Assembly (NCBI GenBank): GCA_964351975.1
Contig: CAYGPK010000003.1
Coordinates: 24,738 to 88,737, forward strand
Source of the DNA: an uncultured Methanosarcinales archaeon
GTDB taxonomy: Archaea; Nanobdellota; Nanobdellia; Woesearchaeales; UBA583
Reading direction: 5' to 3'
Length of the DNA stretch: 64,000 bases
The notes below the pieces were generated by a model that worked only from the letters and a program-made list of their open reading frames with translations, did no database searches and was not told the DNA's origin. Below, piece after piece: positions 8,641 to 9,696 of the stretch (the first letter of the stretch is position 1; each line of letters begins with the position of its first letter). The translations under genes were made by a program, and so were the position numbers.

Positions 8641-9696
8641 ATGGTAGTATTAGTAGAATATATTAAAAATTCAATTAAAGCATCTTTTTTTGATGATGAA
8701 GCTTTAGATTATATAGATGAAAATGTAAATTGGAAATTAGTTTATTTTGTATCTTTGTTTGTAGGGTTGTTTAATTGTCTAATTAATTATATTACTACAG
8801 GAAACTTTTTTTATATTATTCTGGAAAATAATTTATTAAATTTAATTATTTCTATAATTTTATTTTTTTTTGGTTCTTTTATAATTTTAGGACTATTTCA
8901 TTTATTGTTAAAATTATTTGGAGGTAAAGGTACATATTTAAATACTTTCAAATTTGGTTTGACTATTGGTTTACCTTATTCTTGTTTTTTTATTTTATTA
9001 ACTTTAATTTTAAATTTAACTTCTTCAAAATTAATATTTATTTTATTAAATACTTTTAATATAGTTTTTATTTTATGGATTTTAATTTTAGAAATTGGGA
9101 TATATTCTGTTATTCATCAAATTAGCAAATTGAGAGTTTTTTTTGCTTTATTTGGAATTCCCATTTTACTTTTTATTGTTAGTATTATTTCAATTTTATT
9201 TTTAATTAATTCAGCGGTGGATTTACAATCTAATGCTTTAGATGTTGGAAGACAGGCTCAAGATAAGATTTCAACAGATTTAGAGATTACTCAAGTTTAT
9301 GTAGTTGATACAAGTGATGGCGAAATCAATAGTGGTGTTGATAATTTATCAATAACTACAAGATTAGGTTCAGGAAGTAATTCTATTGATTTATCAGAGT
9401 TGTTAATTAAGATTGACAGTAGTTCACAAGGTACTATGAATTATTTATTTGAGAGCAGTAATATAGAAGATTCTACTTATATAGTTAATTATTTAGTTAA
9501 TGGTTCACAACATTTAGAAGGTTATATTTCTTCAGGGGATGTTATTGAATTTACAATGCAAATAAGTTCAGGAATTAAGATTTTAGAAGATGATAGTTTA
9601 ATTATTAGGATGATTCCTAAATTGGGTGTGATTAAACCTTTGGAAATAACAATTCCTTTTGAACTTATTGATTCAGTTACCTATCTTTATCCTTAA
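8641..9696 (+). CDS. fusion protein: polytopic membrane domain (about 5-6 TM) + archaellin globular domain
   Basis: Residues ~190-351 (AVDLQSNALDVGRQAQDKISTDLEITQVYVVDTSDG...RLGSGSN...DSVTYLYP) align end to end with the mature part of the archaellins at 38367-40341. The archaellin signal peptide and hydrophobic helix are replaced by about 190 aa of TM helices. Confidence 0.75.
   Translation: MVVLVEYIKNSIKASFFDDEALDYIDENVNWKLVYFVSLFVGLFNCLINYITTGNFFYIILENNLLNLIISIILFFFGSFIILGLFHLLLKLFGGKGTYLNTFKFGLTIGLPYSCFFILLTLILNLTSSKLIFILLNTFNIVFILWILILEIGIYSVIHQISKLRVFFALFGIPILLFIVSIISILFLINSAVDLQSNALDVGRQAQDKISTDLEITQVYVVDTSDGEINSGVDNLSITTRLGSGSNSIDLSELLIKIDSSSQGTMNYLFESSNIEDSTYIVNYLVNGSQHLEGYISSGDVIEFTMQISSGIKILEDDSLIIRMIPKLGVIKPLEITIPFELIDSVTYLYP

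What the first reader, a model, noticed from the sequence alone, without database searches (positions are those of the whole stretch)
8641..9696. Archaellin domain whose pilin-type N-terminus is replaced by a polytopic membrane domain
Seen: residues ~190-351 match the mature archaellins of this window along their whole length. Compare LQSNALDVGRQAQDKISTDLEITQVYVVDTSDG...RLGSGSN...DSVTYLYP with LQSKSLDVGRQSQEKITTDIEIVQVFVADTSDG...RLGSGSS...DTITYLYP. The class III signal and assembly helix are absent. In their place are ~190 aa with about 5-6 TM helices, and the last TM (FGIPILLFIVSIISILFLINSAV) joins exactly where the archaellin helix would end. Established: archaellins polymerise through their N-terminal hydrophobic helix after FlaK/PibD cleavage. 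Inference: this protein cannot be a normal filament subunit. It could be a membrane-embedded template or anchor for the filament base, a decoy or regulator of assembly, or a surface-displayed archaellin fold used for another purpose. I know of no described archaellum component with this architecture.
Basis: partly seen in the sequence, partly recalled or inferred. Interest (0 to 1): 0.7.

Follow-up and report, generated by a model that had tools for sequence, protein, structure and literature searches.

The report
Membrane-locked archaellin head on Yip1 anchor
A small-genome archaeon carries a real, conserved gene in which the outer "head" of its swimming-filament protein is welded to a five-helix Yip1 membrane domain instead of the usual assembly helix, so it must stay in the membrane rather than join the filament; the same fusion arose independently in a second lineage, but what it does is still unknown.

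Summary
ORF 8641-9696 (+, 351 aa) has a full Yip1 domain (PF04893, residues 26-185, five TM helices). It is joined without a gap to an archaellin head (PF01917) that is 43% identical over 164 ungapped residues to the window's archaellins, and 69% identical to a fourth archaellin elsewhere on the same contig.

It lacks the class III signal and assembly-helix signature (TIGR02537) that the canonical archaellins have. Charge distribution predicts N-in, C-out. AlphaFold2 makes TM5 and the retained archaellin stalk one continuous helix.

It is not an artefact:
- A second assembler gives the identical sequence.
- There is no long repeat at the junction.
- The head differs from every other archaellin gene found.
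- dN/dS is about 0.29.

A second Yip1-archaellin protein (P0013) exists in other metagenomes. Neither of its domains is the closest relative of the window protein's, so I infer two independent fusions. Related Yip1 proteins carry other ectodomains.

Best reading: a non-cleavable, non-polymerising, surface-exposed pseudo-archaellin. The nearest concept is the archaellin-derived stator proteins ArlF/ArlG, but it is not a member of that family. Function is inferred only. I rate it a new variant of a known kind, of moderate interest.

The parts
8641..9696 (+). Whole gene: Yip1 + archaellin-head fusion, 351 aa plus stop. The ATG directly abuts the stop of the upstream gene (8640/8641).
   Evidence: The sequence is identical in the independent Logan assembly L001.
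8641..8736 (+). Predicted cytoplasmic N-terminal segment (residues 1-32). It carries the subfamily motif 'NS.K..FF..EALDYIDENVNW'.
   Evidence: alignments; positive-inside count
8716..9195 (+). Yip1 domain (residues 26-185) with five transmembrane helices.
   Evidence: Pfam PF04893, 45 bits, profile 18-173/173; hydropathy; AF2 pLDDT mostly above 90
9127..9270 (+). One continuous 48-residue helix (residues 163-210). It comprises Yip1 TM5, which takes the place of the archaellin hydrophobic assembly helix, plus the retained amphipathic archaellin stalk 'SAVDLQSNALDVGRQAQDKIS'.
   Evidence: AF2 secondary structure; same plan in P0013. PDB archaellins align their mature residues ~11-33 with residues 175-197.
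9202..9213 (+). Fusion junction (residues 188-191, 'LINS'). Yip1 homology ends here and archaellin homology begins.
   Evidence: There is no exact DNA repeat with other archaellin genes at this point.
9211..9693 (+). Archaellin head (residues 191-351): stalk remainder plus beta-sandwich, ending in the archaellin C-terminal motif TYLYP.
   Evidence: BLASTP E 1e-47; 69% identity to P0002; Foldseek top hits are archaellum filaments at E ~1e-8; dN/dS 0.29
621..8640 (+). Upstream co-directional genes of the same apparent operon (621-3416, 3434-6175, 6239-6634, 6628-8640). They encode large secreted or surface proteins whose N-termini look like class III (pilin-type) signals by eye. The operon's first gene is cut by the window start (4-624).
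   Evidence: Profile support for the pilin-type N-termini is only sub-threshold. DUF7483 in 3434-6175 has E 5e-90.
38352..40341 (+). Three tandem canonical archaellin genes (38352-38981, 38985-39578, 39748-40341), used for comparison. They are not adjacent to the fusion.
   Evidence: Pfam PF01917 E 1e-25 to 1e-28; TIGR02537 hit

Best explanation
WHAT IT IS (shown). This is a genuine gene maintained by selection. A duplicate of a canonical archaellin of the P0002 type lost its class III signal peptide and hydrophobic assembly helix. It was joined in frame to the C-terminus of a five-helix Yip1 membrane protein.

The C-terminus of standalone Yip1 proteins ends just after TM5, and charge distribution places it outside the cell. 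TM5 therefore substitutes, in register, for the archaellin helix. The amphipathic upper part of the stalk and the whole beta-sandwich head are kept.

HOW IT MOST LIKELY WORKS (inferred). The product imitates an archaellin subunit waiting in the membrane: head outside on a stalk of about 20 residues, helix in the bilayer, N-terminal end at the cytoplasmic face. Unlike a real subunit, it cannot be cut by the prepilin peptidase and cannot be pulled out of the membrane, because TM5 is tied to four more helices.

I therefore think it acts as a fixed, cell-surface docking element. Candidate partners are the heads of archaellins, or the pilin-like proteins co-encoded in its operon. This would make it an anchor or stator-like accessory in the manner of the archaellin-derived ArlF/ArlG proteins, and not a filament building block.

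The Yip1 module behaves as a reusable membrane scaffold on which different ectodomains have been exchanged. These include the archaellin head twice, a small domain homologous to part of a putative pilin-like protein of this operon, and other domains.
For: Architecture.

Real, not an artefact:
- The sequence is identical in a second assembly over about 11.8 kb.
- The longest exact DNA match to any other archaellin gene is 21 nt, 150 nt away from the junction.
- The head is at most 69% identical to any other archaellin found.
- The alternative frames are closed.

Selection:
- Head dN/dS against P0002 is 0.21/0.72 = 0.29, similar to 0.23-0.27 between true archaellin paralogues.
- 50 of 60 columns invariant in ten canonical archaellins are kept.

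Change of role:
- The head evolves about 5 times faster than its canonical paralogue (35 versus 7 unique changes, p 1.6e-5).
- The losses of otherwise invariant residues cluster in the stalk helix.

Recurrence:
- P0013 (364 aa) has the same plan in at least two independent metagenome assemblies and the same AF2 model.
- Its Yip1 half is nearest to P0128 and its head nearest to P0008. The window protein's halves are nearest to P0019 and P0002. The two fusions share only 24% (Yip1) and 37% (head) identity.

Exchangeable ectodomain:
- P0013 and P0128 occupy the same Hef-[Yip1-X]-Yip1-Kae1 slot but carry different C-domains.
- The ectodomain of P0019 is homologous to the post-helix region of window ORF 3434-6175, a putative pilin-like protein.

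Context: it is the last gene of a tightly packed operon of surface proteins.

Precedent: ArlF and ArlG have archaellin domains without a class III signal and are neofunctionalised archaellin duplicates (PMC10117864, PMC8667602). The bacterial Yip1 protein YknW modulates assembly of a membrane complex (PMC4887032).
Against: - No binding partner is shown, and no multimer modelling was possible.
- No archaellum motor, stator or prepilin-peptidase gene lies in the window or next to P0013. The fusion is 30 kb from the archaellins.
- Because the ectodomain on the Yip1 scaffold is interchangeable, the function may have nothing specifically to do with archaella.
- The contexts of related Yip1-X genes are heterogeneous.
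- Only two protein clusters with this architecture were found among 1.84 billion representatives, so it is not a general archaellum component.
- The pilin-like nature of the operon partners rests on N-terminal motifs read by eye and on sub-threshold profile hits.
- Pairwise dN/dS averages both lineages, and dS may be saturated at this AT content.
Confidence: 0.4

Rival explanations
1. Generic surface display. The archaellin beta-sandwich is used only as a stable, probably glycosylated, Ig-like surface module, for example for host or substrate adhesion in a DPANN-like episymbiont. It has no interaction with the organism's own archaella or pili, and Yip1 is just a membrane anchor.
For: - The same archaellin head is found behind quite different anchors in related metagenomic proteins: lipobox signals (P0010, P0012 with two heads, P0018, P0026/27, P0033, P0059), a short polytopic N-terminus (P0031) and a DsbA-containing protein (P0044).
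- Positional orthologues carry non-archaellin ectodomains.
- The operon partners look like adhesins, with Laminin_G/SPRY-like hits and DUF7483.
- There is no linkage to motor genes.
- DPANN archaellins have been proposed to serve host attachment (PMC11606122).
Against: - Strong retention of residues that are invariant in filament-forming archaellins (50/60), including the stalk segment that has no obvious role in a free Ig-like module.
- Every co-opted copy found starts at about the same stalk position.
- The archaellin head specifically has been captured repeatedly, which suggests a property tied to archaellins.
Confidence: 0.3
2. Assembly regulator or decoy. The membrane-locked archaellin mimic competes with real subunits for the assembly platform or for head-head contacts, and so caps or limits filament growth.
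For: - It has the geometry of a pre-assembly subunit.
- It cannot be processed.
- It diverges faster in the stalk, which normally forms the filament core.
Against: - There is no regulatory context or co-localisation with arl genes.
- The architecture is rare.
- Nothing distinguishes this reading from the anchor reading with the present data.
Confidence: 0.1
3. A recent fusion that is functionally neutral or decaying, tolerated but without a role of its own.
For: - This exact fusion is a singleton at the 90% cluster level.
- The head evolves about 5 times faster than its paralogue.
- Several residues invariant in archaellins are lost.
Against: - The 351-codon frame is intact in a 27% G+C genome where stops arise easily.
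- dN/dS is 0.29, no higher than for true archaellins.
- The head has had time to diverge 31% from its nearest paralogue without disruption.
- The same architecture arose and persists in a second lineage.
- The start codon abuts the upstream stop, consistent with translational coupling in an operon.
Confidence: 0.1
4. Assembly or sequencing artefact: a chimeric join or frameshift that merges a Yip1 gene with a neighbouring archaellin gene.
For: - Only one organism or sample (ERR3534985) carries this exact sequence.
- Read-level support could not be inspected.
- The gene contains long T runs.
Against: - The NCBI contig and the Logan assembly are identical.
- No shared repeat longer than 21 nt exists, and none lies at the junction.
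- The head is not a copy of any other archaellin gene found (69% identity or less).
- Homology to Yip1 and to archaellin is in one frame on both sides, with no room for a signal peptide or a second start. The other frames are closed.
- An independent example exists in other samples.
Confidence: 0.03
5. Cryptic precursor. The prepilin peptidase cuts at the cytoplasmic start of TM5 (after G172) and releases an archaellin-like subunit with a substitute helix that can still polymerise.
For: - G172-I173 lies at the cytoplasmic end of TM5, topologically where class III signals are cut.
- TM5 aligns in register with archaellin helix residues ~11-33.
Against: - There is no match to TIGR02537.
- There are no charged residues at positions -2/-3; the nearest are K163 and R165.
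- The glycine is absent from relatives at this position, including P0013, P0009 and P0019.
- The conserved mature N-terminus 'GIGTLIIFIA' is missing.
Confidence: 0.03

Closest known systems
ArlF / ArlG (FlaF / FlaG), the archaellum stator proteins
   Same: - Archaellin-type beta-sandwich domain without a class III signal.
- Membrane-anchored, with the domain outside the membrane.
- Evolved from archaellin duplicates that changed role (PMC10117864, PMC8667602).
- Foldseek finds FlaG and FlaF structures (5tuh, 4p94, 5tug) at E ~1e-4, after the archaellins.
   Different: - No match to the NCBIfam ArlF or ArlG models at E up to 1.
- By sequence the head is a true archaellin (69% to P0002), not an ArlF/G orthologue.
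- The anchor is a five-helix Yip1 domain, not a single N-terminal helix.
- It is not encoded next to arlH/I/J in the window.
Canonical archaellins (ArlA/ArlB; PF01917 with a TIGR02537 N-terminus), e.g. window 38352-40341 and P0002
   Same: - Head and upper stalk are homologous along their full length: 43-69% identity, no gaps, and the same C-terminal TYLYP motif.
- Same fold as solved filaments 7ofq, 9eq7, 5z1l and 5o4u.
   Different: - Lacks the signal peptide, the cleavage site and the conserved hydrophobic helix 'GIGTLIIFIALILVAAVAAG'.
- Evolves about 5 times faster.
- Permanently tied to four extra membrane helices.
Prokaryotic Yip1-family membrane proteins (PF04893): standalone ~200-aa forms such as P0009 and P0021; B. 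subtilis YknW
   Same: - Complete Yip1 domain with five TM helices and the subfamily's N-terminal motif.
- YknW is an accessory subunit that modulates assembly of a membrane complex (PMC4887032). This is compatible with a scaffold role.
   Different: - Standalone forms end directly after TM5, whereas here a 160-residue ectodomain follows.
- No ABC-transporter partners like YknXYZ are nearby.
Other Yip1-X fusions of the same subfamily (P0019, P0040, P0084, P0128), uncharacterised metagenomic proteins
   Same: - Same Yip1 scaffold, with an ectodomain attached after TM5.
- P0019 is the nearest Yip1 relative of the window protein (42-45% identity).
- P0128 is the positional counterpart of P0013.
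   Different: - Their ectodomains are not archaellin heads (hhalign probability 0.2%).
- Three of them share a small two-cysteine domain. That of P0019 is homologous to the post-helix part of window ORF 3434-6175, a putative pilin-like protein.

Membership tests
Archaellin (ArlA/ArlB) | Archaellin globular domain (Pfam PF01917 above the gathering score) | tested here: met
   38.7 bits against a cut-off of 29.5, residues 183-312. BLASTP E 1e-47 to a window archaellin.
Archaellin (ArlA/ArlB) | Class III signal peptide plus conserved hydrophobic N-terminal assembly helix (TIGR02537) | tested here: not met
   No TIGR02537 hit at E up to 1, while P0002 and window archaellin 39748-40341 hit it at 25-28 bits against a cut-off of 20. 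The alignment shows the segment replaced by Yip1 TM5.
Archaellin (ArlA/ArlB) | Long N-terminal helix followed by a beta-sandwich, as in solved archaellum filaments | tested here: met
   AF2 helix 163-210 followed by eight strands. Foldseek top hits are 7ofq, 9eq7, 5z1l, 5o4u and 8rh5 at E 1e-8 to 1e-7.
Archaellin (ArlA/ArlB) | Polymerises into the archaellum filament | not testable with these tools
   Inferred to be impossible, because the helix is part of a five-helix bundle and there is no cleavage site.
Yip1 family (PF04893) | Profile match above the gathering score over the whole domain | tested here: met
   45 bits against a cut-off of 28.6, profile 18-173 of 173. The N-terminal half alone gives 48.4 bits.
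Yip1 family (PF04893) | Five transmembrane helices, with N- and C-termini on opposite sides of the membrane | tested here: met
   Hydropathy and K/R count: 8 positive charges on the N-terminal side and even loops, against 1 on the odd loops. Five AF2 helices with pLDDT mostly above 90. Sidedness itself is a prediction.
ArlF/ArlG stator proteins | Archaellin-like domain without a class III signal, membrane-anchored | tested here: met
   definition from PMC10117864
ArlF/ArlG stator proteins | Sequence membership (NCBIfam NF052590 ArlF / NF052591 ArlG) | tested here: not met
   No hit for the fusion at E up to 1.
ArlF/ArlG stator proteins | Encoded in the arl operon with arlH/arlI/arlJ | tested here: not met
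   No such genes were recognised among the window ORFs. This rests on reading the ORF translations, not a profile scan of every ORF. The rest of the 156-kb contig was not available.
ArlF/ArlG stator proteins | Binds the S-layer or cell envelope and is needed for rotation | not testable with these tools
   Requires experiment.

The most novel reading that the evidence does not exclude
In these small-genome archaea, a Yip1 subfamily may be a dedicated membrane socket for type IV filament subunits. The Yip1-archaellin and Yip1-small-ectodomain fusions would then be immobile basal subunits that nucleate or anchor the archaellum or pilus in the membrane. They would replace or supplement the canonical ArlF/ArlG stator. 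By Rosetta-stone logic, the abundant standalone Yip1 paralogues would be unrecognised partners of archaellin and pilin helices in the membrane.
Probability: 0.12. Interest if true: 0.8.

Novelty: new variant of a known kind. Interest (0 to 1): 0.55.

Why it matters
Archaellins are thought of as filament building blocks whose identity depends on the class III signal and assembly helix.

This case shows a natural experiment in which that helix was exchanged for a polytopic membrane domain. I infer this happened twice independently, and the head stayed under purifying selection. It gives a second, much younger example of the route proposed for the origin of the ArlF/ArlG stator: duplicate an archaellin, stop it polymerising, and reuse the head at the membrane.

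Together with the lipobox-anchored and other archaellin-head proteins seen in related metagenomic sequences, it suggests that the archaellin head is a mobile surface module in DPANN-like archaea. The surfaces of these organisms mediate symbiosis and are poorly understood.

It would also give prokaryotic Yip1 proteins, whose roles are mostly unknown, a testable link to type IV filament biology.

Tried and rejected
1. The word-indexed homologue searches were swamped by low-complexity membrane words. They found no further fusions beyond P0001 and P0013. The third search, with a 28-sequence Yip1 profile, returned only 5 proteins.
2. Scans of the species-representative genome collection found no relative with either the single protein or a Yip1 alignment (one search failed for lack of a conserved stretch). 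The lineage could therefore not be named. The metagenome scan returned only the already known P0019 contig.
3. Exact look-ups gave no organism names for window proteins. 'DPANN-like' rests on 27% G+C, the archaeal housekeeping genes, and a distant hit labelled Nanoarchaeales (P0010).
4. I tested whether the small ectodomain of P0019/P0040/P0084 is a diverged archaellin head. hhalign probability was 0.2% and there were no PDB sequence hits, so I rejected this.
5. I sought profile confirmation that the operon partners are type IV pilins. The only hits were sub-threshold (Flp1_like E 0.008, DUF7287 E 0.007), and TIGR02537 was negative. This is kept as a visual observation only.
6. The contexts of the lipobox-archaellin proteins were too short or consisted only of housekeeping genes. 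The contexts of P0040 and P0084 showed no filament genes.
7. The bacterial promoter/terminator scan around the gene was uninformative.
8. I considered cleavage at G172 by a prepilin peptidase and rejected it on motif grounds.
9. Multimer modelling with archaellins was not possible with the tools.
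Full report
OBSERVATION

Pfam finds two domains above their curated thresholds:
- Yip1 (PF04893): residues 26-185, covering the profile to its last position, 45 bits.
- Archaeal flagellin (PF01917): residues 183-312, 38.7 bits.

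BLASTP against the window archaellin 39748-40341 aligns residues 188-351 with 34-197. This gives 43% identity over 164 columns without a single gap, E 1e-47. The three tandem archaellins are at 38352-38981, 38985-39578 and 39748-40341.

A profile of the Yip1 subfamily hits no other ORF of the window. An archaellin-head profile hits only these four genes.

ANATOMY

Hydropathy gives five membrane helices: 33-52, ~66-90, 105-127, 131-158 and 166-190.

Lysines and arginines are distributed as follows:
- 3 in the N-terminal segment, 3 in loop 2 and 2 in loop 4.
- 0 in loop 1 and 1 in loop 3.

This predicts N-terminus inside and C-terminus outside, so the archaellin head would be extracellular. That is a prediction, not a demonstration.

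AlphaFold2 with a shallow alignment gives mean pLDDT 81.8, above 90 for most of the Yip1 part. It has five helices, and the last one (163-210) runs without a break from TM5 into the archaellin stalk. An eight-strand sandwich follows.

Foldseek against the PDB returns archaellum filament subunits first (7ofq, 9eq7, 5z1l, 5o4u, 8rh5; E 1e-8 to 1e-7). The stator proteins FlaG and FlaF come next (5tuh, 4p94, 5tug; E ~1e-4). Sequence search of the PDB aligns residues 175-269 with mature residues 11-107 of the Oxyplasma archaellin. TM5 therefore sits in register with the archaellin assembly helix.

The junction is visible in the alignment:
- The standalone Yip1 protein P0009 reads ...SKLRVFFALFVIPTIIAIIIFGIILLFFMSLFQQF-stop.
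- The fusion reads ...SKLRVFFALFGIPILLFIVSIISILFLIN|SAVDLQSNALDVGRQ.
- The archaellins read ...GVLIQ|TAASLQSKSLDVGRQ.

The NCBIfam model of the archaellin/pilin N-terminus (TIGR02537) matches the canonical archaellins but not the fusion. The ArlF and ArlG models do not match the fusion either.

IS IT REAL?

- The exact protein is on record from an NCBI contig of 156 kb and from a Logan assembly of run ERR3534985. The Logan contig is base-for-base identical to the window over the gene and about 11.8 kb around it. These are different assemblers, though probably working on the same reads.
- The other two frames across the junction are full of stops.
- The longest exact DNA match between the fusion gene and any other archaellin gene available is 21 nt. 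It lies at 9359-9379, about 150 nt from the junction. A k-mer chimera is therefore unlikely.
- The head is not a copy of any other archaellin found. The nearest is P0002, a canonical 196-aa archaellin on the same contig but outside the window, at 69% identity.
- Read-level support could not be inspected.

SELECTION

Nei-Gojobori estimates for the head against P0002 are dN 0.211 and dS 0.719, a ratio of 0.29. The window's true archaellin paralogues give 0.23-0.27.

Of 60 alignment columns invariant in ten canonical archaellins, the fusion keeps 50. Six of the ten changes lie in the stalk helix (T191S, S194D, K198N, S199A, S206A, E208D).

Tajima relative-rate tests show that the fusion's head has accumulated 35 unique changes against 7 in P0002 (outgroup P0003, p 1.6e-5).

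The head is therefore constrained but released from part of the archaellin constraint. This is the pattern expected after a change of role.

RECURRENCE

A full HMMER search of 1.84 billion representative proteins found one more protein matching from end to end. This is P0013, 364 aa, 33% identical. It occurs on at least two independent ENA assemblies, and its 90% cluster has five members. Its AlphaFold2 model has the same plan, with a continuous helix 169-215 followed by the sandwich (pLDDT 81.2).

The two fusions are not each other's closest relatives in either half:
- The Yip1 halves share 24% identity. Their nearest neighbours are P0019 for the window protein and P0128 for P0013.
- The heads share 37% identity. 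Their nearest neighbours are the canonical archaellins P0002/3/4 (69-66%) for the window protein and P0008 (63%) for P0013.
- P0013's head also evolves faster than its canonical neighbour (25 versus 9 unique changes, p 0.006).

I infer two independent fusions. One fusion followed by gene conversion with local archaellins cannot be excluded with distance trees.

THE YIP1 SCAFFOLD CARRIES DIFFERENT ECTODOMAINS

P0013 lies between the Hef helicase-nuclease gene and a standalone Yip1 gene followed by kae1. On a 137-kb contig of another organism, the same slot holds P0128: Yip1 plus an unrelated 150-residue C-domain. That contig continues through glutaredoxin, BolA, YgjP, rhomboid and TFE-alpha to four archaellin genes.

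The window has the same gene order from kae1 (33606) to the archaellins (38352-40341) and has Hef at 27767. Four unrelated genes fill the slot, and the fusion lies elsewhere.

Three other Yip1-X proteins (P0019, P0040, P0084) share a small two-cysteine ectodomain. That of P0019 is homologous to the region directly after the N-terminal hydrophobic helix of window ORF 3434-6175 (E 3e-7). This domain shows no similarity to archaellin heads.

CONTEXT IN THE WINDOW

The fusion is the last gene of a tightly packed co-directional set. Gaps or overlaps between neighbouring genes range from a 7-nt overlap to a 63-nt gap, and the fusion's ATG abuts the previous stop.

A Logan contig shows that the set begins with a 259-aa protein. 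By eye it has an N-terminal signal peptide and a C-terminal anchor. A divergent NUDIX gene lies upstream of it.

The set contains no secretion ATPase or platform gene. The large middle proteins (931, 913, 131 and 670 aa) have N-termini that look like class III signals: KGQ-ISVFIV..., KKKG-IGPVIASSLLIVV..., RGQ-VSIFIVIG.... Profile support is only sub-threshold, so this is a visual observation.

I recognised no archaellum motor or stator genes among the window's ORFs.

WHAT IT MOST LIKELY DOES

Shown:
- The protein keeps an archaellin head and upper stalk.
- It lacks the signal and assembly helix.
- It is tied to a polytopic domain.
- It is under purifying selection.
- It has a convergent counterpart.

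Inferred: it copies the geometry of an archaellin waiting in the membrane but can be neither cleaved nor extracted. It therefore works at the membrane surface, most plausibly as a fixed docking partner for filament proteins. That would be an anchor or stator-like accessory.

The precedents are ArlF and ArlG. They carry archaellin domains without class III signals (PMC10117864) and are regarded as repurposed archaellin duplicates that retain a subset of inter-subunit contacts (PMC8667602). The only characterised prokaryotic Yip1 protein I could cite, YknW, modulates assembly of a membrane complex (PMC4887032).

I give this reading 0.4.

The main rival (0.3) is that the head is merely a robust surface module used for adhesion. 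Three things support it: the interchangeable ectodomains, the lack of linkage to arl genes, and the many archaellin heads found behind other anchors. DPANN archaella are functional (PMC11104419), and DPANN archaellins have been proposed to serve host attachment (PMC11606122).

The lesser rivals are a regulator or decoy (0.1), a neutral fusion (0.1), an artefact (0.03) and a cleavable precursor (0.03).

COMPARISON AND NOVELTY

It is not a member of the archaellin family in the functional sense, because the defining N-terminus was tested and is absent. It is not an ArlF/ArlG orthologue, because it does not match those models, has a different anchor and sits in a different context. It is a member of the Yip1 family by its N-terminal half.

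No paper in the searchable library mentions Yip1 together with archaellin.

I classify it as a new variant of a known kind: archaellin-derived, non-filament, membrane-anchored proteins. Interest is moderate (0.55). The architecture and its convergent origin are real and unexpected, but it is rare and its function is unproven.

Noticed in passing
related proteins P0010, P0012, P0018, P0026, P0027, P0033, P0059 (loci L014-L017): At least six distinct metagenomic proteins combine an N-terminal lipobox-type signal (e.g. LFLAGC, FLTGC, FIAGC) and other domains with a C-terminal archaellin head. The head starts at the same stalk position ('SLDVGRQSQEKI...') and ends in TYLYP or a similar motif. P0012 has two heads in tandem. 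One (P0010, NQZ84142.1) is from a MAG labelled Nanoarchaeales. The archaellin head seems to be a widely reused surface module in this group.
   Followed up: partly
related proteins P0031 and P0044: The archaellin head also occurs behind a short polytopic N-terminus (P0031, whose head is 68% identical to the canonical archaellin P0028). It also occurs inside an 835-aa protein with a DsbA/thioredoxin domain (P0044).
   Followed up: partly
window 9693-10277 (-) and L002 2441-2911: The convergent neighbour of the fusion overlaps its stop by 4 nt and matches Lit, the bacterial lipoprotein intramolecular transacylase (PF07314, E 7e-14). A Peptidase_A8 (signal peptidase II-like) gene lies about 5 kb upstream of the archaellin gene P0002 on a contig that appears to come from the same organism. 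These are bacterial-type lipoprotein maturation genes in an archaeon that seems rich in lipobox proteins.
   Followed up: no
window 4-8640 (+) and L013 4729-8300: A six-gene operon of surface proteins ends in the fusion: 259 aa with a signal peptide and C-terminal anchor (by eye), then 931, 913, 131 and 670 aa with pilin-like N-termini. The 913-aa protein has DUF7483 (E 5e-90) and weak Laminin_G/SPRY hits. No ATPase or platform gene is present.
   Followed up: partly
window 27767-40341; L004; L007: The gene order Hef-[slot]-Kae1-Grx-BolA-x-YgjP-rhomboid-TFE-archaellins is conserved between the window and L007. L004 shares only the Hef-[Yip1-X]-Yip1-Kae1 part. In both relatives the slot holds a Yip1-X gene plus a standalone Yip1 gene. 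In the window it holds four unrelated genes (30111-33541).
   Followed up: partly
window 38352-40341 and L002 7743-8333: The genome has two archaellin subfamilies about 51% identical to each other: three tandem copies in the window, and a solitary P0002-type gene elsewhere on the contig. The fusion's head derives from the solitary type.
   Followed up: yes
L004 11141-11743 and 12955-13509; L007 9118-9732: Standalone Yip1-like polytopic genes sit directly beside the Yip1-X genes in the relatives, so the family is multi-copy there. The window itself has only the fused copy.
   Followed up: partly
window 10700-12253 (-) and 60601-61824 (+): Two large proteins with CARDB/NPCBM_assoc-type domains. 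By eye they have an N-terminal signal and a C-terminal membrane anchor, which makes them candidate envelope or S-layer-like proteins.
   Followed up: no
window 48605-48814 (-) and 63168-63239 (+): Three tRNA genes (Ile-GAT, Asn-GTT, Thr-GGT). No other Rfam family reaches its gathering score in the window.
   Followed up: yes
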